Shown piece after piece: positions 1-33,750 of a stretch of DNA of 34,770 nucleotides; position 1 is the stretch's first letter, and each line of letters begins with the position of its first letter. A program made the translations under genes and the position numbers. A model generated the notes under the pieces. It did no database searches. It worked only from the letters and a program-made list of their open reading frames with translations, and was not told the DNA's origin. The stretch comes from Candidatus Absconditabacterales bacterium (lineage in GTDB: Bacteria > Patescibacteriota > Gracilibacteria > Absconditabacterales > Absconditicoccaceae): the NCBI GenBank assembly GCA_041750055.1, contig JBGTAD010000014.1, forward strand, positions 1 through 34,770, read 5' to 3'.

Positions 1-252
1 ACGCTGGCGCAGATCTTGAATACACGTCATGGATATCAGACCTCCGGATGGATCGTAGGTCGTATCCTCACGAGCATGCCACAGCACGAGTGGAATAGCT
101 GTCCACGATGGAGAGTCGTGAGCAAAGAGGGGATCGTGAGCTCACTCAAGCTATGACACAAAGGCCTCGTGCAAGTACAATTATTAGAAAAAGAAGAAAT
201 AGAAATCTGAAACGGATCCATCGATATGAGAGTGTATGGGTGGAAGTGATAG
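1..252 (+). CDS. Alkyltransferase-like (ATL / MGMT DNA-binding domain) protein, C-terminal part; 5' end lies outside the window
   Basis: Frame 1 with UGA=Gly reads ..GYQTSGWIVGRILTSMPQHEWNSCP[CGA]WRVVSKEGIVSSL..LLEKE..YGWKG. This is colinear with E. coli YbaZ/Atl (..ARQVGGVLKRLP..LPWHRVV..G.ISL..). The ATL signature P-W-(H/W)-R-V appears only if CGA 106-108 is Trp. True stop TAG 250-252. Confidence 0.7.
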
Positions 253-1136: not shown

Positions 1137-2555
1137 ATGCAACTCCACCTGTATAACACTCTCTCACGTAGCAAAGAGCTTTTCGTTCCTATTAATCCTG
1201 ATCTGGTAACGATTTATAGCTGTGGGCCGACGGTGTATTCTCGTCAGCACGTAGGGAATCTGAGAGCAGCATTCGTCGTAGATCTGCTCAAGAATGTCGT
1301 CAAGCATATCGCATGATATCCGACCAAGCATGTCATGAATATTACTGATGTCTGACATCTCACCGGAGACAACGAAGGCGACGCTGATCACGGAGAAGAT
1401 CGTATGGAAAAAGGCGCACGCAAAGAGGGGATTACAGCTCGAGATGTGGCTGCTAACATTACTCAGATATACATGGAGGATTTACATACGCTGCGTATCG
1501 ATCCTCTCGATGTCATGCCTAGAGCGACCGATCATATACCAGAGCAGATCTCCATGATCCAAGAGCTCGAATCCAAAGGCTATACCTATGCTATCGATGG
1601 AGATGGAGTCTATATGGATACATCCAAGATCAAGGATTACGGCAAACTCTTGTCCGCCAAACATCTCGCAGGACTAGAATCATGAGCAAGGATCAACGAT
1701 GCCGGTAAACGCAACCCTACGGATTTTGCACTCTGGAAATTCAACATCACGGGCAAAAAACGTGATATGGAGCGAGATAGCCCACGATGAGTAGGTTTTC
1801 CTGGGCGACATATCGAATGTAGTGCTATGAGTATGAGATATCTATGAACTCATATCGATATCCATACCTGAGGAATGGAACATATCCCTATCCACCATAC
1901 TAACGAGATCTGTCAGTCTGAGTGTAGTCACGGTCATCAGCCGCGAGTCAACGTTCGAGTACACTATCAGCGACTCATGATGAATGGCAAAAAAATAGCA
2001 AAATCTGACGGTAATTGCGCGTATCTTGACGATGAATTTACTTCCAGAGGTCTCGCCTGAGAAGATCTCAGATATTTTTTCCTCCAGGCACATTACAGAT
2101 CCTTTCAAGACTTCACTCGAGAGGGATTGGAAGCAGCGAAGAAATCCAGACAGAATTTGAAAAAACTCTTTGCTCCGTATCTCGAAGTACAAGCAGCATC
2201 ATCATACCAAGAAGATATTTCGTATCTGACAGAATTACTACTCGATGATCTCAATACGCCTCAGATGATCGCGAGACTCCGAGCAGGCGCAGATGCGCTA
2301 GATACGGCATTAGCGAGTGCCATCAGATGGTTGGATGAACATGTCTTGAAATTGTGATTGTTTGACCTCACCCCAACCCTCTCCTACGAGGAGAGGGGGA
2401 TCTCAGCTGAGATTCAAGATCTCGCTGCTCAGCGTCGACAAGCTAGACTCTCCAAAGATCGAGCCAAAGCTGACGCTCTGAGAGATGAACTCAAAGTACT
2501 AGGCTACGAGATGAATGATGGGAAAGAGGGATATGAGGTGGTGAAGATTTTTTAG
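1137..2555 (+). CDS. cysS: Cysteine--tRNA ligase
   Basis: Five track fragments in frame 3 are joined by TGA. Motifs: CGPTVY, NITDV-G(TGA)-H, SP-W-G.G.PG-W-HIECSAM (Trp positions are CGA), DIHT-G(TGA)-G..H.NE, VNV-W(CGA)-VH, KIAKSDGN (KMSKS). Stop TAG 2553-2555. ATG 1110 is a possible alternative start. Confidence 0.95.
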
Positions 2556-3743: not shown

Positions 3744-4253
3744 CTATCGTAGTGATTTCCCAATGATGAGGCCATTCAAGATCAAGAAGATCAGATTTCC
3801 TATCCATTCAGCTTGTTTGGGTGAAGACGTGAGTCGTCCCAATCCGTCAATGATCGCATGACGTCGCAAAAACAGGTACAACATCAAGTACGTTCCAGGT
3901 ATGATATGAGCATATCGTGGATAGACACTAATATCTTGTCCAAATAATCAGACGATTTTTTCTAATACTGTCATGATTCGTCCGATGCTGAGTAGTGAGT
4001 TGATCAATAACCGTATCACTTTGTCTACGCCGAAGATGGTCAGATAAAAAACCGTATACACCGATATCGCTATCCCTCCATGTAATGCAGCGAACCAGTA
4101 TTCTGCAGCCCCATAACTGATAAAAAATCCTGACACGCCAAATGCCAACATATGGATCCCAAAGAATGGATAGACAAATCGCTTGGCGCTATTCAAAGGC
4201 GTCGCTTTGCCGTTGATGGTGATTTCTTGAGCTGGTCATAGAGAGCTATTCAT
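3744..4253 (-). CDS. Hypothetical multi-pass membrane protein
   Basis: ATG 4251-4253. The 82-aa track ORF extends in both directions through TGA codons (4236-4238 and 3948-3950). 169 aa with several hydrophobic spans. Stop TAG at 3744-3746. Confidence 0.55.
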
Positions 4254-4374
4254 ATCAATTCGTATAGGAGATGAGGTCAGATTTTCAAGATCTTTTGTCA
4301 AAAGTCTTGCGCTTAGATATATAGTTTAGTAATAAATAGTATCACGATTTTATCAATGATAGTAACGAAACGTA

Positions 4375-8853: not shown

Positions 8854-9264
8854 ATGCGTCCCTCTCTCAAACATATACTCGCTATTGATCGATGAAGCAA
8901 GATTGTCTGATTGGCTCGCGCTCAAATTGGATCTAATGTTGTGTTTCCCATTGGATACCTAGATAATGATAAAATGCTGTATTATTATATTTCTGATTTG
9001 ATCACGAGATATCGCGTCAATACTATTGCTTTAGGATATCCTAGCAAACAAAAAGACATTCAAGAAAAAATCAATGATTTCATGAAAGCGTTGTCATATA
9101 TCATCGAACACGAAAAAATTACGATTGAACTCGTTGATGAAGATTATACTAGTGTCCAAGCAGGAGAGATTATGTCCAATTTTAGAAAAAATGCAGCGGA
9201 AGACACCATCGCTGCAATGTTGATTCTAGAGAGATATTTGGAAGAGAAGAACCATCAGCAATAA
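8854..9264 (+). CDS. ruvX: Holliday-junction resolvase-like / pre-16S rRNA nuclease YqgF
   Basis: Reads MRPSLKHILAID-[CGA]-G(TGA)-SKIVG(TGA)LA... This is the YqgF motif D-(Y/F/W)-G-.K..G.A. The C-terminus has ..DEDYTS..A......AAEDTIAAMLILERYL. Confidence 0.85.
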
Positions 9265-9391: not shown

Positions 9392-9775
9392 CTATCGAAA
9401 TGAAACAAATCCTAATAATAATCCCAGTACTACTGAGGATAAAGAAGCAATAAAGATATACATTTTGCTAGCTTTGTATCCGATGAGGATCTTGCTCGCT
9501 AATGTAGGAAACAGGATGCTAGTTGCTCCTTTGATCAGGCTGATTCGTCATAGCAGAGTCACGATTCGTATGTGTTGCTCATATACTCACTGATACAAAG
9601 TGATCAACAACGATCATATGATCAGATTAAAAATACTCATGAGTCGTAGTGTAGATTTATGACTCGCAATCTCGTCCAGCAGTGAGACATAGTAGCTTTG
9701 GTTGATCATCATACTCGTTCATAATATCACGAAGATCACCGAAAACGCATGTAATATAGAGAAAATATCGTGCAT
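9392..9775 (-). CDS. Hypothetical small membrane protein (127 aa)
   Basis: ATG 9773-9775. Reads MHDIFSILHAFSVIFVILG.., about four hydrophobic spans, five in-frame TGA, stop TAG 9392-9394. Not present in the standard-code track. Confidence 0.5.
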
Positions 9776-9898
9776 CAAAATAATATATAAAAAATAAAAT
9801 AAATCTGACACTAGCAGTATTGTAGCGAGAATCATCAAAAACGCAAATATTAGATCATGTTTCAGATTTTATTTGTTTTATGATATGTATCCAATACC

Positions 9899-10772: not shown

Positions 10773-12011
10773 CTATGGTGTTGTATAACGTTGTTTGTTT
10801 GTGAAGCTTGTTTGTAGAGTGATGCCATAGAGTTTGAGCGAGTTGGCAGGTATTTGTCCGCGTCGATATTCTCCATACAAATTGCTCGTGAAGCGGATTG
10901 TCACATACGAACTTATTTGAGATCCGCTAGATATTCGAGAAAGACTCGGATCACTATTAGGGCTGATAGATAAAGATCGTTCGCTTACCGTTAGATCGCG
11001 TCATAGCAGACTAATCCATCCATCATTTGTGTTTGCGGGGAGACGATATCCGGTGTATGCTCATCCCATATTTTGTCACTGACAAATAAATCATTCATTC
11101 AGATCACATGCTCGTGTATCGATTTTCCCATCGTAGACCCCGCTGGATGTCGTGACGTTGAAGTCATGATTTGTACCAGCGTCAAATCCTTTGAGTCTGA
11201 GTATCTGCAAAGAATATAATCTATCGACACTGCTATTGCCAGTAATACCATCATTATCTCGGTCTCCACTACCCAGCAATTGTCTCCTGATAAATATCCT
11301 AGAATCCTTGGATGGAGAAATGAGGTACAACTCCTGAGCTCAAGATCCTCACATGAGTGCGACGGGTCAGATTCCAAGATCTTTGTCATCATCATCTCCT
11401 GCTGATCATACCAGTGAGCTATTTACTTCGTCGGCTACATCGATATGTTGTAGTGCATATTGTCCAAAAGACTGGTATTGAGGCTGTGTAAATCTTCATG
11501 GGTTGTACTGATAGCATCCTCATCATAGATTTACAGATGTATTTTTGAATGTAATACGAGGGTAGGAGGGCATGGTCTCATCGGTACCGATACTCGAGCT
11601 ACAGTAGTACAGATGATGTCATGACTGAGAATCTCCATTTATGATAAATGTATCGATACTATTGGCATTGCCATAATGAGTGAACAATCCACAAGAAGCC
11701 CCTGTACCGACATCTCGTAGTGGTAATCCTACGGTATTACAGCCTACCAATTGTCTATTAAAGTATTCTTCATAGTCGATCGAATAATCTCTCAAGAGGG
11801 TATTGATTTTTTCGAGGGTAAAGTATGATTGCTGAATGAGAGCTTGCCTAGCAGAAGAATCTGCCTTGATTGTGACCATCTGACGATACACGCCCAATAC
11901 TGTCGTCATGATCAAGAAAAAAATCGTGATAGCCGTCAACATTTCCATGAGTGTGAATCAATGTATCTGGCGACGATACATGTTGCGAAGACGACAAGAT
12001 GTGCAAACCAT
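10773..12011 (-). CDS. Type IV pilin-like protein (large pseudopilin / minor pilin) with prepilin N-terminal cleavage-methylation motif
   Basis: Reads ..MYRRQIH-G(TGA 11958-11960)|FTLMEMLTAITIFFLIMTTVLGV... This is the classic G|FTLxE plus hydrophobic helix. The frame is continuous for 412 aa to TAG 10773-10775. The start could instead be ATG 11979-11981. Confidence 0.75.
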
Positions 12012-12206
12012 AAATTCATATACAAAACAAACAAAATCTGATAACTCATACCTATGGTTTGAATAGCTTGTTTCAAGCGATTGTGGGTATGAAAATATAT
12101 TTCTACATGAATGTCAATCCAAGATAGCACCCATCATTTGCAACTGCTATTTTTTTGGATATAGTGTGGTATTAGATTTTTATTTTATTGTTCATGATTA
12201 CAACCT

Positions 12207-17126: not shown

Positions 17127-18866
17127 ATGAGACAACAGTTTTTGAAGTATGTGTATAGCATGAGTATACTTGCATGAATCATATGATGATTGGGTATACA
17201 GTGAGTATCAGCAGGTTCTCTAAGTTCCAATCGGAATAACGATGGGTTTCTTCAGCAGTCGTTCTGGACTGATAGTCCTACTACAGGGGAGATTGTCAAT
17301 GCTGTGTATGGAGATGCTAATACAGCCTATAGTGCTATATGGTCAGGATGAAACACCTGTATCCCTGGCAATATGAGCGTCGTATATCTCAATAGTGGCA
17401 CCAATACGATTCCTACTAATTTATCATCCAATACTATCTATGTGCTCAGTGGTACATACAATACCTCCTTACAGATTAGGATGTGATGATCTTGTACAGC
17501 GTTGGTAGGGGCTACTCCTCTCACGAGTGTTGTCAAGACGACAGATGGTTCATTTATAACGATCTCCGGTAGTAATATTATCTTAGATAATCTCTTGATT
17601 GATGGTAATGATAAAACCAATGGTGTTTTTGAGGGTATTACTAATATAGGAATTGATAGTTACGTTTTTGACGGACAAGAAAATATTTCAATGAATAATA
17701 TTAGTAGTTATAATGCTGGTAGATGAATAGAAACAAGAATAGGCTGATATCATATTTATATCACAAATAGTAATATATTTAATAATGTTATTGGAATAGA
17801 TCTAGATGGAACGCATAGAGTACTCATTCATAATTCTCATATCTTCAATAATGAGCAATGATTTGCATTATCTACAAACGGATGGACAGATATTGTCATA
17901 GCAAATTCTCAGATCTATAATAATGATGTATTGTTTTATAATCAGTATTCATGCTCTTATACTGATAAAATAACAATCAATAATACTCAGATATATAATA
18001 ATAGTGATACAACAAACTGTGCAACAATACTCAGTGCAGCGGCTGTTAACATGATTGCATCAGATTTTTATTACAATGCTAATGCATCAGTAGATGGAAC
18101 ATTCCCTATACGATGAATAGGTAGATTTTTCGCTAATGACGGTATACCTGGTGATGACTATGCAGGACTATTCACATCCGAGTATGATCCTATCAGGAAT
18201 ACACAGACATGATGACTCATTACGGGACTGACGATGAGTGCTCAGTATCACGCATTACCTAGAGATGTGAGTAATCTCGTCATCCATAATAACGACCCAC
18301 TAGTTATATGAAGAGATGTGACACGAGATCCCGTATTGCCACTGTCATTTAATTATACTTCCACTATTACAAGGAAGCAAGTTCCCCTGTTTTTTTATAG
18401 TATGACATCATGAGTATGTAGCGATCCTTTTTATACATCTCGACAAGAATGTGTCTCCAATTTTGGTACTTTACGATCATGAGATCTCTACGTACCCAAT
18501 GTCGTCATAGATACTGGTAACTATATCTGACAGCCATCATACGGACCTCAATCACCGTGAGCTCCTGCAAGTGTTGAATGTTTTGATTTGACTCCGGCTA
18601 ATGTAGCAAACAATCAAAGCGCTTGATTTCCATCGTTGTGTACTAAGGTACTTATTTCGCCAGCATCGTGACCAGTATGACTGATCGTCCCTATTAGCAT
18701 TGAATATATCAATAGTACTCTATCTGCTCTCACGAATCAGCAATTTAGAGTGTCTTGGTTTCCTATAGTAGCAACATCTGTGCCATCTGCAGTACCGCAG
18801 TCTCGCCAGCTATATGGAGTGTATTTCAAATCATACGCTCCTGATAATGTCACTATCTCTCCTTAG
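17127..18866 (+). CDS. Secreted right-handed parallel beta-helix repeat protein (579 aa)
   Basis: Signal-like N-terminus. Repeated I.N..I.NN / N.TI.N..IYNN turns (17560-18010) are typical of pectate-lyase-like beta-helix repeats. Frame 3 is continuous through about 30 TGA. Stop TAG 18864-18866. Confidence 0.7.
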
Positions 18867-19136: not shown

Positions 19137-19742
19137 ATGAAATCCTTCAACGTCCAAGACTTTTATTTCAAAGAAGCCAAAAAGCACGGCTATGTCGCCA
19201 GGAGTGCGTACAAACTCAAAGAAATACAAGAAAAGTTTGGGATATTGACCGCTAATACGCATAGCGTCATGGATATCTGATGCGCACCAGGATCACGGAT
19301 GCAATATACCCAAGAGACGCTAGACGAACTCAAGGTCAAACAATATCAGGTTTTGTGATGTGATTTAAAACCATCGATCGTCCAGCTGCCACATGTTCAT
19401 ACCTATGTTCAAGATGTTCAAGATCTTGACGCAGTCAAGGCGCTGATGACTCATCATCAGATAGACAAATTTGATGTCATGCTCAGTGATCTAGCGCCCA
19501 ATACTATCTGAGTCAAGCATGTTGATGCTCTCAGAGCTATGGGTATCATCGAAAAAACTCTACCTTTGTATGTCGATTTCCTCAAACCTAACGGCCGCTT
19601 TGCGATCAAGATTTTTATGTGACCAGGTTTTGATGAATTTGTCAAAGAACTCAAGACTCTCTTTGGTTCTAAGCTCATCAAAGTATTCAAGCCCAAAGCA
19701 TGCAGGCCAGATAGCAAAGAAATATATGTAATAAAAGTATAA
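19137..19742 (+). CDS. rlmE: 23S rRNA (uridine2552-2'-O)-methyltransferase RlmE/FtsJ
   Basis: Reads ..ARSAYKLKEIQEKF......VMDI-G(TGA)-CAPGS-[CGG]-MQY..LSDLAPN..G(TGA)..D...KIFMG(TGA)PGF. This is the FtsJ SAM motif (DLGAAPGGWSQ), with CGG 19296-19298 on the Trp. Confidence 0.9.
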
Positions 19743-20397: not shown

Positions 20398-20820
20398 TTA
20401 GTATCGTGCTTGTATCCAGGTATTTCGTAGATAGCTGCGTCGTGCTTGCTGGGTCGAAGTATAAATGATATTTCCATTGATTGATTGATCAGTTTCATCT
20501 TCTCTTTGGTCTCCTGTGCTGAGCGCTTGATCAGGAGCTTGATCCAATAGTTGTACAAAACGTTCTCACGGCAGGAGTTTGTTCGTCTCATGCGCAATAA
20601 ATTCTAATGCATAGGGTGAATTAAGAAGAGGCTTTTCTATCTGCTCCAAGAATGAGATCTCTTTTTCTAGTTGTGTGATTTGGTATTTGATCGAGTCGAT
20701 TGATATCAAGATAGCACTATAATTTACATATGTCCTGATACTGATGACCATCAAAAAAAGGTTGAGTACTAGCAACCCGTATTTGAAGAAAAAATAATTT
20801 TTGGCAGAAAGTCTCTTCAT
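20398..20820 (-). CDS. ftsB: Septum formation initiator (FtsB/DivIC family)
   Basis: Reads MKRLSAKNYFFFKYGLLVLNLFLMVISI (TM), then the coiled coil ..IKYQITQLEKEISFLEQIE.., then PYALEFIAHETNKLLP-G(TGA)-ERFV (DivIC/FtsB C-terminal signature). Stop TAA 20398-20400. Confidence 0.65.
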
Positions 20821-20868
20821 CTGTACAATATCACTAAAAATCTGACACAAATATCCTACTATATCAAA

Positions 20869-22029
20869 TTATCATGGTCGTTCAATGACTCTTTTGATAC
20901 TAGGTGATAGTTTGACTAAGATCTCGTATATTATGGTGCCTGCAGATTGCGCAATATCTTCTAGCTGCTGTGGGTGCTGAATCGTATCCAAGAGCGTAAT
21001 TGTATCACCCACATGGATAGGATGTTCGTCAGTTTCCATACTACACAGATTCATGCAAATATTGCCTCTTTGATGTATCTGATGATTATTTCGTCCAAAG
21101 ACTAATCTGTTCGATGTAGCTCTGGGAAGACCTTCATAATATCCAAAAGGTATGGTAGCTATCGTGGTTGGCTGTTCAGATTTTCGTGTTTTATTATAGC
21201 TGACTCATTCTCATGCTCAGATATGCTGTACGCTGGTGACAGTACTAGTGATACGTAGTGCTGGTTTGAGTTGAGATCATCTGGCATAGCCTGGATCCTG
21301 AGGCTGTAGGGGAGAGTAGCCGTAGGTAATCAGTCCTGGTCTTCGTGCGTTGATGATTGGGTGGTCGTGGATCTTGAGGATAGCTCAGCTTGCTCAGATA
21401 TGCCTATAGCGTACCGTGAGACCAGCATCTAGGATGATGTGATAGTATTGTGTGAATATTGCTATCTGCTCCTGCATACTGTTAGTATCGATCGTATCTG
21501 CGTCACTGAGATGAGACATCAGACCTACCAGCTGTATCTGTTGGTGTTGTTTGATCAGATCGAGAGCCTTGATGAAGTCATCATGCTGTAATCATTCTCT
21601 ATTCATCCCTGTATTGACGAATAGATGGATACGAACTTTGCGTTTGAGATGTATAAGACTATACAGTATCTGCAGTGTGGATACACTGATATGAGTCCTA
21701 CGCAGGTCTAATAGTCTATAGTTGCTAGCAGCAGTCTCTCACAGCAGCAGTATGTCTTTGGATGAGTAGTCGCGTACGATCTGATATTCTGGCAGGCTAT
21801 CGACCACGATCATCGGGACATTAGTAGTATTGATTATTTGCGCGATCTGTTTGAGTCCGTGTCCGTATGCATTAGATTTGAGTACAGGGAAGATCGTATC
21901 ATGAGGGTGTCGTTGCTGTATAGTGTGGATATTGTGGATGATGTGTTCGGCTTTGATGTAGATAGTATTGAGGCTTGCGATCGATCATGCAGACTGAGTC
22001 CTCCACCAGCGAAGTATAGCACGTATCAT
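20869..22029 (-). CDS. alr: Alanine racemase
   Basis: Reads ..FPVLKSNAYGHG (PLP-Lys motif)..HLFVNTGMNREG..GLMSHL..A-[CGA]-RPGLITYG..VSYNKT-[CGA]-K....IATIPFGYYEG..GNICMN..GTIIYEILVKL. 386 aa. Ends ..RP-G(TGA)-TAA. Confidence 0.9.
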
Positions 22030-22057
22030 AGATAGGATATCTGGTAGATAAAACATT

Positions 22058-22325: not shown

Positions 22326-24932
22326 CTACTGAGATCGTTCGTTCAGGAGCGCTTCGAAAGGATCTAGAGATCATCCGTAGGTATTATAGATGATCGTGTT
22401 ACCACCGTTGCTCTTGGATGTGATAGCTCCTCTTAGAGAGTCTTGCAGGTCTCGTATCAGACCTTTTGCATATATTCATAGTCACTGCAATCTATCGGGA
22501 TCTGTAGATGTTAATTTGTCGAGTATTCTTTGTACGATGAATCTTTCTCTTGTGATATCGCCTCCATAGGATTCAAGCCTTCTCTTGAGCACATCTAAGA
22601 GTCTGTGATTGTACCCTAGTGTGATGTTGGGATCGTTTCGGATGATCTCAGTCAGCAGATATGCTATTTCACCTCTCGTGACAGATCAGTTACCACTAGG
22701 AAATCTATCCAAAGAAGCTGGATCATATCCCTTCATCTTGAGTAATTCACTCAAGACTCATCTGACTTCATTTTGAGTGATTTTGCGATGAGGATTGAAA
22801 TATTTGAGTCCTGATGATCAAATTCCAATACCCATGATATCCGCTCGACCCAGGCTATCGATTTGATTGATAAATCTGACATAGGTAGATCATGGTTCGA
22901 TATCTACGAATCTGGAAGAGATCGTATCGTTGATATATCATTGATTGAGTGAGAGAATTCTACCTACGATGATAGCAAATTCTCCACGCACGAGATGTTT
23001 GTTGGGCGCGAACCAGCTTCTTCCATTTTGAGAATATCCTATCATGATACCATTGTTGATCATCGTCGCAATATGCGAGAGATACGGACTATTAGTGATA
23101 TCACTCATGAGTGATGGTGGATTTGCTCTTTGGATGATTTGATTATATTTGTTGACCAGATCAGTGATGACGATCAGCGGACTAGCAGTTCCAGTATTAT
23201 AATATCCCGTGTAGTATCCTGTATAGTACGGTATGCTGTTATTGCCAGATATGATGATCGTAGCGCTTCTGGTATTGTTTGATGTGTTGGTGTCAGGTGT
23301 AGTACTCGTGATGGATGCAGTGTTTTGGATAGTCTGACCTGATAATCACAAGACGATTCCCGTGATGATAATCTGTCCACTGGATCCTGTTCATAGGTTG
23401 GGGAGATTGTATCTGATCAGCGATCATGATATGAGTGAAGGTATGAGAGATCCTGTCTGATACGTAAATAATGATCCTACCGTATAGTCCAGAAACACTC
23501 CCGTAGCAGCATAATTGGGTGAAGTAGCATTGTTGTAGGTAATCACAAAAGAAACCTGACTATTTGATACTGCAGTAGCTACAGATCCTGTATGAGAGAC
23601 TGAGAGATCGACATTGACAGGACCTACAGGTATAGGCGCTGTGTATACCTGTCCTGTGGCTGTAGCTCCGAATGGAGAGAAGTATCCGGTACTTTGTTGT
23701 AATGCTGGGAAGAGAAGCTGCCTCCTGGCGATATAGTTATGCATGAGAGTGAGTTCGCTAGCGTTGAGGACTCTGTTATACATCATAACGAGAGCGATAT
23801 CGCCATTGGGATGTTTTCCAAGACTGACTGGTAAGTTTGTCAGATTTATTCATGTTTGAGTATATGATCAAGATCATTTTAGAGATAATAAAACTCCATC
23901 TCTATAGATAGCCATTGATCAAGCAGCTCACATTTTTCATTGCACTGTTCGTAATCCGGCACTTGTTTGTAATTGAGGATTGAGTAAAAAGTTTGTTGTA
24001 GGATCCAGTGTGAGACGTCATCCGCTCTCAGGGTCTCAGAGAGTAAACGAAACAAATCAACTAGTATCTACTGTAGAAAATGAAAATCACGTTATTGAGC
24101 TTCATATAATTTGGTTATATCAAGTTGTATTATTATTTTTAGAGATAACAAAGAGAGTTGTCTCTGTCAATGTCGCTGAACTAGCATTGAGTCATATTCT
24201 TTGGAGTGTAGCATAATTATTTCATGAGCCGATAAAAGTAGTATACGCCCTATTGTTGTTAGACCAAATGGTGAAGTACTTTGATGAGATTCATGCAAAA
24301 AAGTGATCAAACTCATCAAGAGGATTTAAAAAATTATTCATAAAAGCAGATCTATCGTTTCGTGATCATAGATGTTGATTATTTGCCAAGCCCGTAATAT
24401 ATTGGCTATCCAACCACAACATCAATCCACTCGATACTTCAGGAGAGATAAGTCCGCCCGAATACGTGATGATAGCTGTCTGATAGGGGAGCATCGATCC
24501 AATATTTCGATACAGCTGACGCCCACTAGTTGATGTCGCCTGTGCTGGTATGATGGCGTTGGTTGCTCCTGATATCGTGATATTAGCGCTATGATATTGT
24601 AGACCACTCATGAGAAAATCTGACACGACTACTCCTGTAGCGCGATTGGCACTATTATTGTAGATATTGAGTGTATATTGGATATGCTCTACTCCGGGAC
24701 CAGGATATACGAGCTGAGCTGTTTTGCTCGAGACTTGGATATTGACCTGAGCATACGATATATTAGACAACAGCCCCAATCCCACCAATCCTACTATGAC
24801 GAATCTACCAAATATCTGTGATGCTATATGTAGGAGAGAGTCAGAGGTATGTGGACGGTTGGTATATGAGTTATGCGTGTTGCTATACGCGATATTGCGA
24901 TCTGTCATCTGTGGGTGTTGTGGGTGTATCAT
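22326..24932 (-). CDS. Large cell-surface protein (868 aa) with DUF11-like repeats, a LamG/concanavalin-like domain and C-terminal SLH-like repeats
   Basis: The whole frame was verified through about 45 TGA. N-terminal TM/signal ..FGRFVIVGLVGLGLLSNISYAQ. DUF11-like ..YTLNIYNNSANRATGVVVSDFL.. and ..VSFVITYNNATSPNYAATGVFLDY... LamG-like ..LWLDSQ...ALVMMYNRVLNASEL... SLH-like ..F.D......Y...I......G.M.GY....F.P....R.E.A... Stop TAG 22326-22328. Confidence 0.7.
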
Positions 24933-25255: not shown

Positions 25256-26851
25256 ATGCTCAACAATCTCATCAAGACTATCCTCGAGCTCAGTGATGTC
25301 CAGACGATCAAACCTAGCTTTGAACTCATCGGCATCCTGAGTCAAGCTGTCGCATCTCGTGTGCAGGCAGTGATTTTTGATGGTGAAGGCAAGAAATTGG
25401 CTATCTTAACTACGAACAACTTTCCTACTCAGCTCCAACAGATCATCGAACGCCTCGAATCTCAATGATATACCTGCAAACTGTACTACACTGATCCAGC
25501 TAGTATCGAATATGCTCTGACCCGATATGACCTCAAAGCAAAAGCAGAATCTGAACAACAAACATTGTTACAATCACAAAAAGACGCTGCCTGAGTCAAC
25601 GCCCTCGAGCTGATCAATACTACCTATGAGCAAAAAGGCAACAGAGATGAAGGTGATGTGATCGTGGATTTGGTCAGATTTAGTTTTCAGGCTGGAGCGA
25701 GCGATTTACATTTTCAGCCAGAAGAAGACGGCGTGCATATGAGAGTCAGGATCGACGGAGTACTCAAGCAGGTCTTGTTTTTTGATCATAAAGAATTCGC
25801 CAGATATCTGCAAAAGATCAAATTCATCTCAGGGATGAAAATGAATATCGACTATGTTCCCCAGGATGGAAGGTTTAGCTTCGTGGTCGAGCAACACGGT
25901 GAATCTAAGACCATCGACGTCCGTGTCAACTGTATGCCTGGTTTGCATAATGAAAGTACCGTCATGAGATATCTAGATGGTACCAAAGGTATCCAACGTT
26001 TTGAAGATATCGGGTTTTGGGGAGAGAATTATGAGACTCTCAAGACCTGACTCCAAGAAAACTTCGGGATGGTGCTCGTGACTGGTCCTACAGGTAGTGG
26101 TAAAACAACCACGCTATACAGCATGCTCAACACCCTCAATGATGGCTCTCGCAAGATCATCACGCTCGAAGATCCGATCGAGTATATGGTATCAGGGCTT
26201 CAACAATCTCAGATCAACTACACCAAAGGATATGACTATGCAATTGGGCTCAAAGCTATCCTGCGTCATGATCCAGAAATCATTCTCATCGGAGAGACTC
26301 GTGATGCAGAGACTGCTCAGATAGCTCTCAATGCTGCACTCACAGGACATCTCGTGTTCACAACACTCCATACCAATGGTGCTCTGGAGGCGATTGACCG
26401 TATCATCAATATGGGAGTCAAAGGGTATATGCTAGCCCCAGCTCTGAGTATGGTCATGGGTCAGAGATTAGTCAGGAAATTGTGTAGCTGTGCAACCCGC
26501 CAACCAGCAGATTATGCTCAGACACAGCAGATCAAAGAATGAATCAAAAAAATATTAGAAATCAGACCCTGAATACGTACAGTGGGTTGAAATCCTTTGG
26601 AGTTTGATGGATCACTCATGCATCCGGTAGGGTGTGCGGTATGTAATGGTACCGGATACAAAGGACGTATCGCAGTCGTAGAAATTCTTGCTATTTCTTC
26701 TGAGCTCAAGGTCATGATTACTGAGGGAAGATCTACCTTCGATATCTATGCCAAAGCACGTGAGTTAGGTTTTCTCACTCTCCAAGAAGATACTCTGATC
26801 AAAGTACTTGACGGACTCACAACGATCGAAGAAATGAGGAGGGTCGTGTAG
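25256..26851 (+). CDS. pilB: Type IV pilus assembly / type II secretion ATPase (PilB/GspE family)
   Basis: Four track fragments are in frame 2. Motifs: ..ASDLHF.P......R.R.DG.L.., Walker A VLVTGPTGSGKTTTLYS, ..LRHDPEIILIGETRD..TGHLVFTTLHTN.., tetracysteine C.C....C..C.GTGYKGR. Stop TAG 26849-26851. Confidence 0.9.
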
Positions 26852-26939
26852 CGGCAATCACGGATCGTCATCGAAACATCTCCCTAAGAATCTGAATACT
26901 TATATTTCTTGAAATCCGATAAAAAAATCACACGAAATT

Positions 26940-26983
26940 TTGCTCTCAAAAACTTGAGAGCAATGATCTCTTGCATTTTTTTT
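26940..26983 (+). terminator. Intrinsic terminator after pilB
   Basis: TTGCTCTCAA-aaac-TTGAGAGCAA (26940-26963), then a T-run at 26975-26983. Confidence 0.6.
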
Positions 26984-26999
26984 ATTATTCGATATTATA

Positions 27000-27018
27000 C
27001 CTATACCTATGGTATAGG
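27000..27018. promoter_or_regulatory. Perfect palindrome; candidate CsoR operator upstream of csoR
   Basis: CCTATACC-tat-GGTATAGG contains the TACC...GGTA core seen in described CsoR operators. It is 27 nt upstream of ATG 27045 and is followed by ATTTTTTAT, so a second terminator hairpin is an alternative reading. Confidence 0.4.
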
Positions 27019-27044
27019 ATTTTTTATATAACCATATATTGCAG

Positions 27045-27332
27045 ATGATCCAATCTCATCCAGATACATACGCAGCACTTGATCTCAACCTCAAAAAAGC
27101 TCAGGGAATGCTCAAAAAAATAGGCACGATGCTACAATCAGACGAATATTGCTGAGATATTGCACAGCAAATCAATGCAACCACATGACTACTCAAAAAA
27201 ATGAATACGATTCTATTAAAATCTCATCTGCTTTGTTGTGGTAAAAACAAACTTTTTTCAACAGACCAAAAAGAAGTTGACTCTTTTGTTGAAGAGTTTT
27301 TTAGGCTAGCAAATGTAAGCAACAAGAAATAA
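27045..27332 (+). CDS. csoR: CsoR/RcnR/FrmR-family metal-sensing transcriptional repressor (copper-sensing type)
   Basis: 95 aa reading ..LKKAQGMLKKIGTML......C-G(TGA)-DIAQQINATTG(TGA)LL......LKSHLLCC... This is the DUF156 helical-bundle pattern with the C-H-C ligand set. It sits directly upstream of the copper ATPase block. Confidence 0.8.
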
Positions 27333-27371
27333 TCAGTCGGATCGTTCTTTAATTGATTGCCAAAAAAAACT

Positions 27372-28646
27372 ATGAAACAATTATTTAATATCCAATGAAT
27401 GCACTGCAAGTCGTGCGAAATTGTTATCAAAAAATGACTTAATGAGCTAGATGGTTGTAAAGTCCTATCTCTTTCTCATAAAACATGAAAGCTAGAAATA
27501 CAGGTGGATGATATCATTGATGAACAAGATATTGAGTGAGTTCTTCAAGAACATTGATATAGTTTGAAGACTATTGCATGATGACTTTCATCACAAGATT
27601 TTTCAATCAAATTATTGTGGCTTGTTGTAGCAATAATTCTGTGAGTTATGGTTATGAATATTGATGTCACTCAATTCATGCCTCAATATTCGTCTCTTAC
27701 TGTTGGAGTCGCAATCTTGGTTTGATGAGTTGCAAGTATTTCAACGTGTCTGGCAGTGACATGAGGATTACTTATCTGATATAATGCTCATGTAGAGTCA
27801 GAAAACATCATGACTACACAAGTGCTTTTTCATCTTTGAAGATTGGGAGGGTTCGCATTAGGAGGATTACTGCTGGGAGCTGTGTGAACTCAGATTTCAT
27901 GAACTCCTTTGGTTAATGCGATACTCGCAATATTGGTAGGTGTTTTGCTCGTATATTTGTGAGGACAGATGCTGTGACTTGTCCCCAACATGAGTAAGCG
28001 ATGATTCCATTTACCAGAATTTCTGAGTAAACCTATACATCATCTCAAAAATCCTGTCTATGCTCCATTAGTATGAGCACTCACATTTCTCCTTCCTTGT
28101 GGTTTTACCCAAAGTATGCAATTATTTGCACTACAATCATGAGATCCATTTACGGGATTTATGATTATGACATGATTTGCGCTCGGGACTCTACCCGTCT
28201 TGTTCGCCGTAGGAGCCGGAACACATTATATCAAAAAAAAGCTAAAGCTGATACAGCCACTGATCGCGACCTTACTGTTGGTTTTTGGTGTGTTCACTAT
28301 CACGAACGCGTATCAGCTCATCAATGCTTTACAGACGGTATGACCACAGACATCCTCTTGAATCAGCAATAATCTCCCAATAGAAACAAGAGAAATCTGA
28401 CACGATGGCAGTCAATTTGTTCCCGAGACAATCAAACTACAACAAGGGAAAAACTATATCCTGCGTGTGACCCCAACTCAGGATGGAATAGGATGTATGT
28501 ATCAGGTCGTCGTACCTGGTAAATGACCACAAGACATCAAACAAGGTCAGGTTTTTGAAATATTTGTGGATGGTGCATCCACGAAAACGATTCCCTTGGT
28601 ATGTTCATCTATGGGAATGAGACAGTGAGAGATTGTCGTAGAATAA
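27372..28646 (+). CDS. Fusion protein: N-terminal HMA metal-binding domain, TauE/SafE (DsbD_2)-like multi-pass membrane domain, and a small C-terminal beta-rich (cupredoxin-like?) domain
   Basis: Reads MKQLFNIQ-G-MHCKSCE..(HMA GMxCxxC)... About 6-7 Gly-rich TM spans (..LAVTGGLLIGY..FALGGLLLGAV..LLPCGFTQSMQLFAL..). C-terminal ..YILRVTPTQDGIGCMYQVVVPG... 424 aa with about 35 TGA. Stop TAA 28644-28646. Confidence 0.7.
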
Positions 28647-28689
28647 TTCGCATATATGGTAGACTTTTACTATTTTCCATCCCAAACAC

Positions 28690-30969
28690 ATGACCAAACA
28701 AACCTATGCTATACAATGAATGAGTTGTGCGAGTTGTGCAAACCATATCGAGAAATCACTCAAAAAGACTGAAGGTATAGAATCTTGTGAGGTCAACTAT
28801 GCTACAGAACAAGCTACTGTGACGTTTGATGACACCAAAACAAACATCAACAACATGAATCAGGTCATTGAACCGATGGGTTATAAGCTGAAAGATCATA
28901 ATGCTATGATTCAACACACAATGCCGGATGGCACCATGATGAGTGCTGATGAGCATGCAGCGCACCTTGGAATGAATCAGACAAAAGTTGAAAAACTCGA
29001 AGAAATTTCTACGATGAAAAAAAATGTGAATATACTCATTCCATTCATAGTCTTAAGTTTTGTGTATATGATTGCAGATATTGGCTGAAAATCATTTTGA
29101 GTTTTCCCTGTGATGCCTGAGCGACTTTACGAACTCTGGCATCATCTTTTCCCTATCATGGCAACCTATGTATTGTTTGTGATTGGCAAGCAGTACATTA
29201 TCGCACTACGAAGATTTATAAAAACAGGAATAGCTGGTATGGATACCCTTATTGGACTTGGGACATTGACAGCATTCTTGTATAGCTTTAGTGTCGGTGC
29301 ATTTGAAGGGATATTAGCTCCTTATCTTGATGTCAGTATTCACTATTACGATGTCGTGATTGTGGTGATTGGATTTATTTATTATGGCAAATATCTAGAA
29401 ACGATATCCAAACTCAAAACCTGAGAAGCAATTGAGAAACTCATGGATTTACAAGCAAAAACCGCTCTCATCGAAAAGGATGGTGTAGAAATAGAAGTCT
29501 CGCTGGATCAAGTGATGCAAGGAGATATTGTCATCATCAAACCATGAACCAAAATTTCTGTAGATTGAATGATCACACAAGGAGAAAGTAGCGTGGATGA
29601 GTCAATGATTACCTGAGAATCCATGCCAAGCGAAAAAAAAATCTGAGACAAGGTCGTAGGATGAACGATGAATCAACAAGGTTTTCTCAAGGTCAAAGCG
29701 ACATCGCTTGGTGCAGACAGTGTCTTGTCACATATCATCACGATGGTACAGCAAGCCCAAGGATCAAAAGCTCCTATCCAAAAACTTGCAGATCAGATTT
29801 CAGCTGTTTTTGTGCCTATTGTTCTTGTTATCGCTTTTGTGAGTTTGATCGTATGGATTATAGTAGGGAATATGGTATTTGGAATCGTAGCGTTTGTAAG
29901 CGTTCTTGTCATTGCTTGTCCTTGCGCTCTTTGATTAGCGACCCCCACAGCTATTATTGTCTGAGTAGGAAAATGAGCAGAACACGGCATTCTCATCAAA
30001 AATGCAGAAAGTCTTCAAAAGGTCCTGAAAGTTACAACAGTGGTCTTCGATAAAACAGGAACCATAACTAAAGGAAAACCTGAACTCGTAGATTATAGCG
30101 GAGAAAACAAAACGAATGACCTTGCTATATTGGCAAGTCTAGAATCGAAATCTGAACACCCTATAGCTCTTGCTATTGTGAATGCAGCAAACAGTGCATG
30201 AATACCTATGCAAACTGTTAGTTGATTCGAAACCATCCCAGGAAAATGATTGACTGGAATCATCGAAGGTAAACAATGGTATGCAGGAAATGCAGCATTG
30301 ATCAAAGATCTATGACTGGAAAACAATGCTCTAACAGAATCTAGTATTTCTTCTCAAGGGAAGACTCCTATCTTTTTGATGGATGAGAAAAAGGTCCATG
30401 CAGTATTTGGCATTGCTGATACGATCAAAGATAATGCCAAACAAGCATTGGAAGAACTACACAAACTAGGAATAAAATCCGTCATGTTGACTTGAGATCA
30501 CAAAGATACAGCTCATTATATCGCTTCACTCGTATGAATCGATACAGTATATGCCGAAGTCTTGCCTGATCAAAAAGAAAAAATCATCAAAGAACTGCAA
30601 GCAACATGAGAAATTGTAGCTATGTGTGGTGATGGTGTAAATGATGCACCAGCATTGGCTCGCTCAGATATTGGAATCGCCATGAGCACAGGAGCGGATG
30701 TCGCTATTGAGACAGCAGATATTACCTTGCTTGCTGGTGATATTTCCAAAGTCGTACAATCTATTAAACTTTCCAAAGACACTATGAGTGCTATCAAACA
30801 AAATCTATTCTTCGCGTTCTTTTATAATGTCGTAGGAATCCCTATTGCTACAGGTATGTTTTATACTCGATGAATCGTTCTTAATCCGCTTTTTGCTGGG
30901 TTAGCAATGGCTTTGAGTAGCGTGAGTGTTGTAGGGAATAGCTTGAGATTAAAAAACACCAAGCTCTAA
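28690..30969 (+). CDS. copA: Copper-translocating P1B-type ATPase
   Basis: At least 7 track fragments are in frame 1. Motifs: HMA G-MSCASCA, A-L-[CGA=W]-R.......MDTL, TGES, CPCAL-G(TGA)-[22 protein letters not shown]. 759 aa. Stop TAA 30967-30969. Confidence 0.95.
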
Positions 30970-31197
30970 AGATATAGGTTTTGTCAGGTTTTTGTTTATC
31001 TAATTATGCGATTTGAGTTGTAATTTAGTACTTTTATTGTTATTGTTCACAACGGATAAGATAATCTTATATTTGGAATGAGTACAATTTGGTTTTGTAT
31101 AGAAATCCTTTTTGACATCTGGTTGAATACAAATAGTAACGATCCATCATATCATACTAGAGAAAAACTGAGAAAATCATTAAATCTTAAATCTTAA

Positions 31198-31620
31198 ATG
31201 ATAGCTTCTATTCGTCTCTTTTTTGTTTGTGTTTCTTGTTTGGTGTATTTGTCGGGTACGTCTGTTTTTTCTCATATGCTCATTATGCAAGACCATCATG
31301 CAGTTGAGATCTCAGAACATTCTCATGAAAATTGAAACTCGCATGATCATATTGAAAATGTAACTTGTTCATCAGTTGATTGTTATGTTGACTGTACGAG
31401 TATCGAAAGAATAAAAGTAACAAATCTTTCGTCATGACCAAAAATACATTTTCTGGAAATTATAAGTCATATTTTTACTACATGATGTTTTGATTGAGAT
31501 TTACGAAAGACATTACAACTAAAAACATATAGCAAACTCAGTATTTCTGATCATTTCTCATATAGATCAAAATTTCTTGAATTTGCCGATCTTGTAGGAA
31601 TCATTCTTATTACAAGCTAA
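31198..31620 (+). CDS. Small secreted His/Cys-rich protein (possible metal-binding or chaperone role)
   Basis: Reads MIASIRLFFVCVSCLVYLSGTSVFS (signal), then ..HMLIMQDHHAVEISEHSHENGNSHDHIENVTCSSVDCYVDC... 140 aa, four TGA. Located between copA and the MFP/RND pair. Confidence 0.5.
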
Positions 31621-31693
31621 AAAGTATTACAAGCTCAATAGTACTAAATATACTATATTTTTTGTGTTATTTTTTAATTTTTTTTTGTATGCT

Positions 31694-33727
31694 ATGAATA
31701 TTCTTAACTCTATTGATTCTCTTTTTAATAAGTTAGATTTGTATCTTGATAATACACTACCTCAGATTAAAGATATTCGTTTTTGATCTCTTATCGTGCC
31801 TCGTAAATTACAACTCTATAGTGTATTTTTATGATGATTCCTCACAGCAACTATATTTTTAGTGCAAGTAGGTGTTACTTTTGCTGGTCCGTGACATGGT
31901 GGTGACGAAGCAGCAGAACACTTATGAGATGTTTCGGGTGCTATGGTTTCCTGACCGCAATTTATATCTCCTATCCAAATTGATAGCTCTTCAATCGGAA
32001 TTCAATCCTATCCATGAATTATTATCTCTGATGAATATGGAAGTATTTATTCTTCACGTGAGTGAATTGTGTCTCAATTATTTGTTACTTTATGAGATAC
32101 CGTTAAGAAATGACAAAAAGTAGCTACAATATCAATTGCTTCAAATACTCCAGAAATCATCTCAATGATAGCAGAAAAAAAAGCATCTATTGCTATCGCT
32201 GAATGACAAGTAAATGGTGCTCGTAGAGTTTCTGATTATTTGCAATGACAGTTGGGATGAAGTGGTGTTATCATTGGTGCCTACGATCAAAAAAGGACAG
32301 CGCTTGATATTTCATTTGATGTGAAGCAACAACAATTACAAGTAAAGATTGATAATCTTACAGCACAAATTAACTCAAAAAAACAACTTGTAGACGCTAA
32401 TAAAATAGTAAGTCAATCAACAATTGGACTGAATAAAGAGAGACAGTCATCAATTGAATCTTTATTGCAATCATCGATTCAAAGCGCTATAAATTCATTA
32501 GCAAGAGTATTTGGGGAATGAGAAACGAATCCATTCTTATTTGATCGTGAATTTAGTCAGAATATTTATCTTTGAGGAAGAAGTGCCTCGAGTAGAAATG
32601 CCTTTCAAACAAGTATGCAAAAGGTTTTTAGTGACTTTACTAAACGAGACTCGCTAGATATTAACTGAAAACTTGCATTAGGTAACCTTGTTCAACAGAC
32701 TTTGAAAGAATGAGTGTCGCTTTTGTCGTATACAATTATTAACTCAGAGTATAGTGCTGAAAAAATTAGTGAAGATACTGAAATTCTAATCAATGCCCAG
32801 AATAATGAAAAATATTGAATAACTATTATTTTATCAAAATATAAGGAACTTCAGCAAGAGTTATTATGATCAAACGCCGTTGCTTCATGAAATATTATTC
32901 AAGCTAATGTTGAATTGGCTTGATTAGAACAAGAAATAGCTTTATTGAATAAAGAAATACAGTTGCTGAAAAACGAAAAGAAAAAAGAACTTGCAGACTT
33001 ACAGTGAGATCAATCTATTCAATGATTAGATATTCAACAACTTGTCATACAATCGCAATCAGATATCTTTAAAGCTGAAGCTGAACTAAATGCAAACCAA
33101 AAGGCACTTTCTGCTATAATAAGTACAACAAAATCAATAAACGTTGTGGCTCCTTTTGCTGGAACTATTGCACGTAAAAATGTAAGTATTGGACAAAATG
33201 TAGAACTTACTACTCCATTATTTGATATCGCATGAAATAGCACTAACAGCAAACCTTTTGTGAGGTTTGAAGTGCCTGTATCTGACTTTGAAAAAGTACG
33301 TATATGACAGTCATTACAAATGTCACTTGCATGATCTGAGGATTATTCTTTATGAGAGATAATGAGAATTGCTCAATCAGTAAACAAAGAAAATCAGACA
33401 ATTACTATTGAAGGTGATTTCACTCAAGAAGCTCCCTATCCACTTTGAACGACTTTAAGAGTTTCAGCACAATCTTTATCCTGAACTATAGCATTAGAAA
33501 TTCCTACATCTGCTATCTGACAAGATGAAGACTGAAAAATGTGGGTCTATAAAGTATTGCCTAATCAAACTCTTAAAAAACGGAATCTTGATATTAGTTA
33601 TACTAACCAAAGCAAATCATATATTAATAATGGACTAAAGACTACTGACGTTATTGTAAGTGATATTATTGGATGAAGTTGGATTGATGGTATGGATGTA
33701 TCATCATTATTAAAAATAAACGAATAA
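31694..33727 (+). CDS. Efflux RND periplasmic adaptor (HlyD/MFP family) with an unusually long coiled-coil insert
   Basis: Frame 2 was verified codon by codon. TM near residue 40. Lipoyl-like ..EGIVSQLFVTLGDTVKKGQKVATI... A long Gln/Leu/Glu heptad region (32300-33100). ..VVAPFAGTIARKNVSIGQNV..TPLFDI.. beta-barrel motif. 677 aa. Stop TAA 33725-33727. Confidence 0.7.
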
Positions 33728-33750
33728 TTTTATTTCCTAACCCGTCATCG

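What the first reader, a model, noticed from the sequence alone, without database searches (positions are those of the whole stretch)
1773..1973. CGA (and CGG) occupy invariant tryptophan positions: a second, sense-codon reassignment (Arg to Trp)
In cysS alone, six CGA codons (1773, 1785, 1806, 1944, 1956, 1971) are present. Four of them fall on the universally conserved Trp residues of .W.SPWG.G.PGWHIECSAM and VN.WMH.

The same pattern is seen elsewhere:
- ATL signature P-W-W-R-V (CGA 106-108)
- CopA G-A-W-K/R-.-L ten residues before MDTL (CGA 29209-29211)
- Alr YG.TW (CGA 21184-21186, minus strand)
- RuvX D-(Y/F/W)-G (CGA 8890-8892)
- RlmE APGGW (CGG 19296-19298)

Conserved arginines that I could check use CGT, CGC, AGA or AGG instead. 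Examples are ClpP ERD, PilB LRHDP and GETRD, and the Alr RPG arginine, which is AGA right next to a CGA. TGG is still used for Trp.

From memory, a computational screen (Shulgina and Eddy, Codetta, 2021) reported CGA/CGG to Trp in a clade of Absconditabacteria. If that is right, this window is an instance of one of the very few bacterial sense-codon reassignments. It should be decoded with a custom table, which table 25 does not cover.
Basis: partly seen in the sequence, partly recalled or inferred. Interest (0 to 1): 0.8.

Follow-up and report, generated by a model that had tools for sequence, protein, structure and literature searches.

The report
CGA read as tryptophan, known recoding
This contig comes from an uncultured Absconditabacterales (SR1) bacterium that reads CGA, and probably CGG, as tryptophan instead of arginine, on top of reading TGA as glycine; this recoding was published in 2021, so the window is a clear new example rather than a discovery.

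Summary
Every coordinate in the finding carries an in-frame CGA or CGG.

Evidence that CGA means Trp:
- **cysS against 74 standard-code CysS:** Trp is the commonest residue at 8 of the 11 CGA sites (74/74, 73/74, 72/74 and 68/74 at the four motif sites). Phe is commonest at 2 sites. Arg is about 1% overall.
- **Thirteen window proteins against E. coli orthologues:** CGA pairs with Trp 8/27 and Arg 0/27. CGT/CGC/AGA/AGG pair with Arg 49/114 and Trp 0/114.
- **Pfam scores:** reading CGA/CGG as Trp instead of Arg adds a net 43 bits.
- **cysS DNA of six relatives:** CGA alternates with TGG, never with another Arg codon.

CGG is rare (6-7 codons). Its only strong support here is one site, the RlmE APGGW motif.

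Shulgina and Eddy (eLife 2021) reported CGA+CGG to Trp in Absconditabacteria, and a 2026 preprint lists it among known or suspected reassignments.

Two things are new. The lineage is divergent (nearest CysS 66% identical). CGA is its majority Trp codon, about 62-65% of Trp codons against at most 39% in the 2021 table.

The decoding tRNA could not be checked, because the contig has no tRNA genes.

The parts
1137..2555 (+). cysS (cysteine-tRNA ligase), 472 codons: 11 CGA, 0 CGG, 2 TGG, 8 TGA
   Evidence: PDB CysS matches at E 7e-74. Pfam tRNA-synt_1e scores 280.6 bits with CGA=W against 251.0 with CGA=R.
1773..1775 (+). CGA at the first Trp of the W.SPWG motif
   Evidence: W in 72/74 standard-code CysS and in 5/5 PDB CysS.
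1785..1787 (+). CGA at the SPW-G Trp, followed by TGA (Gly)
   Evidence: W 68/74 and 5/5 PDB.
1806..1808 (+). CGA at the PGWHIEC Trp
   Evidence: W 74/74 and 5/5 PDB.
1944..1946 (+). CGA at an aromatic or hydrophobic position before VN.W
   Evidence: F37/W18/L14 of 74. Six relatives have TGG or CGA here.
1956..1958 (+). CGA at the VN.W(M/V)H Trp
   Evidence: W 73/74.
1971..1973 (+). CGA at a Phe-dominated position (H..F)
   Evidence: F56/H13/W4 of 74. Relatives use CGA, TGG or TTT.
1440..2462 (+). Five further cysS CGA codons, at 1440, 2118, 2280, 2436 and 2460
   Evidence: Outgroup plurality is W at 1440 (47/74), 2118 (34/74), 2280 (56/74) and 2460 (38 W, 29 F). Site 2436 is variable, E/Q.
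106..108 (+). CGA in the partial alkyltransferase-like (ATL) gene, P-W-W-R-V
   Evidence: Pairs with the W of E. coli YbaZ STLPWHRVV.
8890..8892 (+). CGA in ruvX/yqgF, D-x-G motif
   Evidence: Pairs with the F of E. coli YqgF DFG. Pfam RuvX scores 70.6 (W) against 69.6 (R).
19296..19298 (+). CGG in rlmE (FtsJ methyltransferase), APG-S-x
   Evidence: Pairs with the W of E. coli APGGW. Pfam FtsJ scores 143.0 (W) against 134.6 (R).
21184..21186 (-). CGA in alr (alanine racemase), YN.T-x
   Evidence: W in E. coli Alr YGGTW and Y in the Gram-positive Alr structures. Ala_racemase_C scores 106.2 (W) against 101.1 (R).
29209..29211 (+). CGA in copA (Cu P-type ATPase), ten residues before MDTL
   Evidence: Pairs with the W of E. 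coli CopA YRSAWKSLL.

Best explanation
The organism is a divergent member of the Absconditabacterales (candidate division SR1). It uses the clade's known variant code: UGA is glycine; CGA, and very probably CGG, is tryptophan; CGU, CGC, AGA and AGG remain arginine; UGG remains tryptophan.

The mechanism is inferred from the literature on relatives, not shown here. The CGR-reading tRNAs (anticodons UCG and CCG) carry tryptophan identity features (G73, no A20) and would be charged by TrpRS. A tRNA(GCG) keeps CGU/CGC as arginine. Because a U34 tRNA reads both CGA and CGG, the two codons changed meaning together.

In this lineage the new codon has rebounded. CGA now encodes about two thirds of all tryptophans.
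For: **Shown here**
1. At the 11 CGA sites of cysS, 74 standard-code CysS have W 59.8%, F 16.6% and R about 1%. At the 21 other Arg codons they have R 49% and K 19%. Summed log2-odds are W +56, F -3, R -34.
2. In 13 proteins against E. coli, CGA pairs with W 8/27 and R 0/27. Other Arg codons pair with R 49/114 and W 0/114.
3. Changing only CGA/CGG from R to W gains a net 43 Pfam bits: CysS +29.6, FtsJ +8.4, Ala_racemase_C +5.1. The worst loss is -1.6.
4. In the cysS DNA of six relatives, CGA columns alternate with TGG (and TTT/TAT), never with CGT/CGC/AGA/AGG. In the 120 nearest database CysS, six of the window's 11 CGA columns (and its TGG-200 column) contain only R and W.
5. Composition: Trp is 1.39% if CGR=Trp but 0.47% if CGR=Arg (counts).
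6. TGA pairs with Gly 43/86, like the GGN codons.

**From the literature**
PMC8629427 reports the same inference by Codetta for 10 Absconditabacterales species. Most of them have tRNA(UCG), tRNA(CCG) and tRNA(GCG) genes, and the paper reports finding tRNAs whose anticodon and identity elements fit the Trp reassignment in this clade.
Against: - No tRNA, TrpRS or ArgRS gene lies on the contig, so the decoding machinery of this organism is unseen.
- I found no tRNA(UCG) or tRNA(CCG) in about 340 kb of DNA from recoded relatives.
- CGG is supported by one strong site only. The other aligned CGG sites pair with T and with R, the latter in a weak AcrA alignment.
- A few CGA sites fall on variable or non-aromatic positions: MurD G/D/A/L, ClpP V, cysS 2436 E/Q. 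This is expected for Trp in poorly conserved positions, but these sites are not informative.
- There is no protein-level evidence. Partial or ambiguous decoding cannot be excluded from DNA alone.
Confidence: 0.93

Rival explanations
1. CGA is read ambiguously: mostly Trp but partly Arg, or depending on context. A Trp-type tRNA(UCG) would compete with residual Arg-type decoding.
For: DNA comparisons cannot measure decoding fidelity. The 2021 paper itself says that only experiments can show whether translation is ambiguous. One variable cysS site (2436) has some K/R among distant homologues.
Against: No CGA lies on a conserved Arg (0/27). CGA occupies catalytic-core invariant Trp positions and is the majority Trp codon. 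That would be costly if a sizeable fraction were mis-incorporated.
Confidence: 0.05
2. CGA still means arginine (plain table 25), and this lineage simply tolerates Trp-to-Arg replacements.
For: This is the default annotation. Public databases translate this contig that way.
Against: It would put Arg at four positions that are Trp in 68-74 of 74 CysS, and at conserved Trp positions of ATL, CopA, Alr and RlmE. It would leave Trp at 0.47% of residues. It would also need every relative to flip between TGG and CGA at the same columns while never using AGA or CGT there. Log-odds for R are -34 against +56 for W.
Confidence: 0.01
3. CGA encodes another aromatic or hydrophobic residue (Phe or Tyr), or the pattern is an artefact of sequencing error or RNA editing.
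For: Two cysS CGA sites are Phe-dominated in outgroups, and several pair with V/L in E. coli.
Against: Summed log-odds are F -3 and Y -16 against W +56. The codon exchanged with CGA in relatives is overwhelmingly TGG. The same pattern occurs in independent assemblies from many samples, which rules out an assembly artefact.
Confidence: 0.01

Closest known systems
Absconditabacteria/Absconditabacterales variant code (UGA to Gly; CGA and CGG to Trp), Shulgina and Eddy, eLife 2021 (PMC8629427)
   Same: The same three codon meanings are inferred by the same logic: reassigned codons on conserved Trp or Gly columns. The clade is the same, since the best CysS matches are named Absconditabacterales or SR1. 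GC is low (0.384). AGA is the main Arg codon and CGG is rare.
   Different: In the ten species tabulated in 2021, CGA is 13-37 per 10,000 codons. Its share of Trp codons is at most about 0.39 (computed), and the authors describe an 'early stage' without rebound. Here CGA is 86 per 10,000 and 62-65% of Trp codons. The nearest relative found (L009) is similar at 67%. The lineage is divergent: nearest CysS is 66% identical.
NCBI translation table 25 (SR1/Gracilibacteria: UGA to Gly only)
   Same: TGA is in frame throughout. It accounts for 274 of 761 Gly codons and pairs with Gly 43/86 against E. coli.
   Different: Table 25 leaves CGA and CGG as Arg, which mistranslates about 0.9% of residues here (89 codons in 9635).
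CGG to Trp in Anaerococcus and in RFN20 Bacilli (Onthovivens); CGG to Gln in Peptacetobacter (PMC8629427; PMC13092985)
   Same: An arginine CGN codon is captured by Trp in a low-GC bacterium.
   Different: Those lineages lack tRNA(UCG) and change CGG only, while CGA stays Arg. Here CGA is the main reassigned codon and UGA is also recoded.

Membership tests
Absconditabacterales code (UGA=Gly, CGA/CGG=Trp) | UGA is a sense codon for glycine | tested here: met
   274 in-frame TGA in 28 genes. TGA pairs with G 43/86 against E. coli, like GGN. G is 73% at the 8 TGA sites of cysS in 74 outgroup CysS.
Absconditabacterales code (UGA=Gly, CGA/CGG=Trp) | CGA falls on conserved Trp columns and not on Arg columns | tested here: met
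   W 8/27 and R 0/27 against E. coli; W 59.8% against R about 1% in the CysS outgroup; log-odds W +56, R -34. Pfam net +43 bits.
Absconditabacterales code (UGA=Gly, CGA/CGG=Trp) | CGG falls on conserved Trp columns | tested here: inconclusive
   Only 6-7 CGG codons. One sits on the invariant APGGW Trp of RlmE (+8.4 bits). The others are on unconserved positions. One CGG in relative L015 sits in a CGA/TGG column.
Absconditabacterales code (UGA=Gly, CGA/CGG=Trp) | CGU, CGC, AGA and AGG remain Arg, and UGG remains Trp | tested here: met
   These four codons pair with R 49/114 and W 0/114. Conserved Arg of ClpP, PilB and Alr use CGT or AGA. TGG at cysS codon 200 is W in 74/74.
Absconditabacterales code (UGA=Gly, CGA/CGG=Trp) | tRNA(UCG) and/or tRNA(CCG) with Trp identity (G73, no A20), and tRNA(GCG) for Arg | not testable with these tools
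   The contig, which is the whole record at 34,770 bp, has no tRNA (ARAGORN; Rfam). Searches near cysS and rpoC of relatives and two collection scans found no CGR-reading tRNA. This feature rests on PMC8629427 only.
Absconditabacterales code (UGA=Gly, CGA/CGG=Trp) | Phylogenetic placement in Absconditabacterales | tested here: met
   The named proteins among the nearest CysS are Candidatus Absconditabacterales or SR1 (65%, 57%). No match is closer than 66%. No marker-gene tree was built.
Absconditabacterales code (UGA=Gly, CGA/CGG=Trp) | Trp actually incorporated at CGA (protein-level) | not testable with these tools
   No proteomic data. The 2021 paper also lacks experimental confirmation for this clade.

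The most novel reading that the evidence does not exclude
In this lineage tryptophan is being moved out of UGG. CGA already encodes about two thirds of Trp, beyond any species in the 2021 survey.

A possible driver is conflict inside the split UGR box. UGA is the most used Gly codon here, and a U34 tRNA-Gly(UCA) could misread UGG. On this reading the CGR-to-Trp capture is an adaptive follow-on of the UGA-to-Gly change rather than neutral codon capture, and UGG could eventually be vacated.
Probability: 0.12. Interest if true: 0.6.

Novelty: new member of a known kind. Interest (0 to 1): 0.3.

Why it matters
**Practical.** Any annotation of this contig with table 11, 4 or 25 is wrong at about 1% of residues, and the errors hit functionally critical tryptophans. 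The public protein for this cysS has 19 wrong residues out of 472. Such errors spread into protein databases, HMM building and structure prediction for the whole clade.

**Scientific.** The window adds an independent, divergent lineage in which a bacterial sense-codon reassignment is not marginal. CGA has become the main Trp codon. This bears on whether such reassignments stall at low codon usage or run to completion.

The finding does not open a new question. The reassignment itself has been in the literature since 2021.

Tried and rejected
**tRNA hunt (all negative)**
- ARAGORN and Rfam on the window: nothing.
- ARAGORN on cysS neighbourhoods of six relatives: only an 11-tRNA cluster in SR1 Aalborg_AAW-1, with no UCG, CCG or CCA anticodon.
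- I guessed that tRNA-Trp would lie upstream of the rpoBC cluster. I fetched the rpoC neighbourhoods of RAAC1_SR1_1, GCA_965191265 and Ca. Absconditicoccus praedator. The gene order is different, and only a tRNA-Cys turned up.
The pattern was too loose.
- The one metagenome scan with a CysS alignment returned mostly standard-code bacteria, because tblastn under the standard code penalises recoded genes. This turned out to be an ideal outgroup, but it yielded no tRNA from recoded contigs.
- The supplements of PMC13092985 held no Absconditabacterales tRNA(CCG) sequences.

**Other dead ends**
- Looking up the window's own CysS to find the sample: not on record.
- I tested whether the CGA share of Trp codons tracks TGA usage or GC across 14 loci. 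It does not (Spearman rho 0.09 and -0.04).
- A minus-strand ORF at 26900-28048 was dropped as spurious. The plus-strand gene at 27357-28646 has Pfam domains.

Full report
**What is in the window**

The 34,770-base window is the whole contig on record. It has 38% G+C and no tRNA or other Rfam RNA. Read with TAA and TAG as the only stops, it gives a dense set of about 28 genes:
- a partial alkyltransferase-like gene
- a DUF218 gene
- cysS, murD, murI, ruvX, clpP, greA, rlmE, alr
- a PIG-L deacetylase
- a PilB-type ATPase
- a metal-resistance block: an HMA-DsbD_2 protein, copA, an HlyD-type protein and an AcrB/CusA-type protein

TGA is in frame everywhere. It supplies 274 of 761 Gly codons. It pairs with glycine in E. 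coli orthologues as often as the GGN codons do, 43/86. The UGA-to-Gly code of SR1/Gracilibacteria therefore applies.

**Checking the observation**

All coordinates in the finding carry the stated codon in frame.

cysS (1137-2555) has 11 CGA and only 2 TGG. Five solved CysS structures aligned to it have Trp at 1773, 1785 and 1806 (5/5 each). They have Trp or Phe at 1956 and 2460, and aromatic residues at 1944 and 2280. Among the 55 aligned residues only one is Arg, at the variable site 2436.

My one metagenome scan returned mainly standard-code bacteria, which made a good outgroup. In 74 CysS without in-frame TGA, the window's CGA sites read as follows:

| Site | Residues in 74 outgroup CysS |
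|---|---|
| 1806 | W 74 |
| 1956 | W 73 |
| 1773 | W 72 |
| 1785 | W 68 |
| 2280 | W 56 |
| 1440 | W 47 |
| 2460 | W 38, F 29 |
| 2118 | W 34 |
| 1944 | F 37, W 18 |
| 1971 | F 56 |
| 2436 | variable, E/Q |

Pooled over the 11 CGA sites, W is 59.8%, F 16.6% and R about 1%. The 21 other Arg codons of the same gene sit on R 49% and K 19%. Summed column log-odds are W +56 bits, F -3 and R -34.

**Beyond cysS**

I aligned thirteen window proteins to their E. coli K-12 orthologues, with the disputed codons masked.
- CGA pairs with Trp 8/27 and Arg 0/27.
- CGT, CGC, AGA and AGG pair with Arg 49/114 and Trp 0/114.
- Fisher p is 2.5e-6 for the Arg comparison and 7e-7 for the Trp comparison.

The individual claims hold:
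- ATL P-W-W-R-V pairs with the W of YbaZ.
- CopA 29209 pairs with W.
- Alr 21184 pairs with W; the Gram-positive Alr structures have Y.
- RuvX 8890 pairs with F.
- RlmE CGG 19296 pairs with the W of APGGW.

The cited conserved arginines use CGT or AGA.

As a profile-based test I scanned ten proteins against Pfam twice, changing only CGA/CGG from Trp to Arg:

| Pfam domain | CGR = W (bits) | CGR = R (bits) |
|---|---|---|
| tRNA-synt_1e (CysS) | 280.6 | 251.0 |
| FtsJ | 143.0 | 134.6 |
| Ala_racemase_C | 106.2 | 101.1 |
| RuvX | 70.6 | 69.6 |
| CLP_protease | 260.8 | 260.0 |
| Mur_ligase_M | 76.7 | 76.6 |
| Ala_racemase_N | 151.0 | 151.4 |
| Asp_Glu_race | 50.3 | 51.9 |

The net gain is 43 bits for Trp.

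Composition agrees. Trp is 1.39% of residues if CGR = Trp, but 0.47% if CGR = Arg (counts).

**Relatives**

The nearest CysS in 5.8 billion proteins is only 66% identical. The named matches are Candidatus Absconditabacterales and SR1 bacteria.

In the 120 nearest CysS, six of the window's 11 CGA columns contain only R and W in the deposited translations. Examples are R100/W20, W66/R54 and W71/R49. The other five also carry F, H, Y or similar residues. The column of the window's TGG-200 is W83/R37.

At the DNA level, the same columns in six relatives alternate between CGA and TGG. Occasionally they show TTT or TAT, and once CGG. They never show CGT, CGC, AGA or AGG. CGA therefore behaves as a synonym of TGG across the clade.

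**Mechanism**

The mechanism could not be examined in this organism. There is no tRNA, TrpRS or ArgRS gene on the contig. My attempts to fetch a CGR-reading tRNA from relatives all failed.

The explanation I adopt is the published one (PMC8629427).
- Absconditabacterales lack tRNA(ACG) and use tRNA(GCG) for CGU/CGC.
- Most have tRNA(UCG) and tRNA(CCG) genes. The paper reports tRNAs for this clade whose anticodon and identity elements fit Trp, which it defines provisionally as G73 with no A20.
- Because a U34 tRNA reads both CGA and CGG, the two codons changed meaning together.

This step is inferred, not shown here. How TrpRS would accept a UCG anticodon is not addressed in the sections of these papers that I read, or in my data.

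**Comparison with what is known**

The reassignment is already in the literature.
- Shulgina and Eddy 2021 predicted CGA and CGG to Trp for ten Absconditabacterales species.
- A 2026 NAR paper treats it as given.
- A 2026 preprint that screened 2.7 million assemblies lists it among 'known or suspected' reassignments.

The window is therefore a new member, not a new kind.

One quantitative difference is worth recording. The 2021 paper describes an early stage without rebound: CGA 13-37 per 10,000 codons, and at most about 39% of Trp codons (my calculation). Here:
- CGA is 86 per 10,000 and TGG is 39. The counts are 77:6:35 for CGA:CGG:TGG in ORFs of 150 residues or more, and 83:6:45 in the curated gene set.
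- CGA is thus 62-65% of Trp codons.
- The nearest relative sampled (L009) shows 67%. Other relatives show 17-54%.
- My ratios for Aalborg_AAW-1 (0.38) and RAAC1 (0.29) match those computed from the paper (0.36 and 0.30), so the measure is comparable.
- The sample is small: about 130 Trp codons.

I tested one idea for a driver, relief of UGA/UGG wobble conflict. I found no correlation between TGA usage and CGA share across 14 loci (rho 0.09).

**Verdict**

The status is a known recoding in a new, divergent lineage with an advanced CGA takeover.
- CGA = Trp: confidence about 0.93.
- CGG = Trp: plausible, but thinly supported in this window.

Noticed in passing
window 1137-2555 (protein P0001): The public protein record for this cysS is translated with table 4 (TGA=Trp) and CGA=Arg. 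That puts 8 Gly positions as W and 11 Trp positions as R, so 19 of 472 residues are wrong. In the deposited translations of 120 relatives, R and W swap at shared columns, several of which contain nothing else. This pattern could serve as a cheap detector of the recoding.
   Followed up: yes
whole window: TGA is the single most used glycine codon: 274 against GGA 225, GGT 137, GGC 65 and GGG 60. Several CGA codons are directly followed by TGA (Trp-Gly), for example at 1785, 8890 and 30868.
   Followed up: partly
window 27357-34770: A probable copper or metal resistance block: an HMA+DsbD_2 membrane protein (27357-28646, +), copA (28690-30969), a small His-rich ORF (31198-31620), an HlyD-type fusion protein (31664-33727) and an AcrB/CusA-type pump cut by the contig end (33673-34770). 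The long minus-strand ORF at 26900-28048 that overlaps the first gene is spurious.
   Followed up: partly
window 10773-12143 (-) and 25256-26851 (+): A 456-residue protein with a prepilin-like N-terminus (G-FTLMEMLTAITIF) and no Pfam match, and a PilB/T2SSE ATPase. Together with large Pfam-less surface proteins at 17127-18866 and 22326-24932, this suggests a type IV pilus and surface apparatus, in keeping with an epibiotic lifestyle.
   Followed up: no
L013 11404-12399: In one relative (ENA BUSI22 scaffold) a class I tRNA-synt_1b gene with TrpRS-like motifs (KMSKS, GIKPT..HIGNY) lies directly downstream of cysS. It would be a convenient starting point for asking how TrpRS of this clade accepts non-CCA anticodons.
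   Followed up: no
L008 431-2068: SR1 Aalborg_AAW-1 has a cluster of 11 tRNA genes flanking rpsT, about 8 kb upstream of cysS. tRNA genes in these genomes appear strongly clustered, which explains why random 20-kb neighbourhoods usually contain none.
   Followed up: no
window: 3' ends of genes at 3744-4301 (-), 9392-9838 (-), 20398-20850 (-), 20869-22056 (-), 22326-24932 (-): Several proteins end with a CGA codon at, or within three residues of, the C-terminus (...KSLW*, ...VSFW*, ...QAWY*, ...IEWPG*, ...NEWSQ*). This may be chance or a preference for C-terminal Trp.
   Followed up: no
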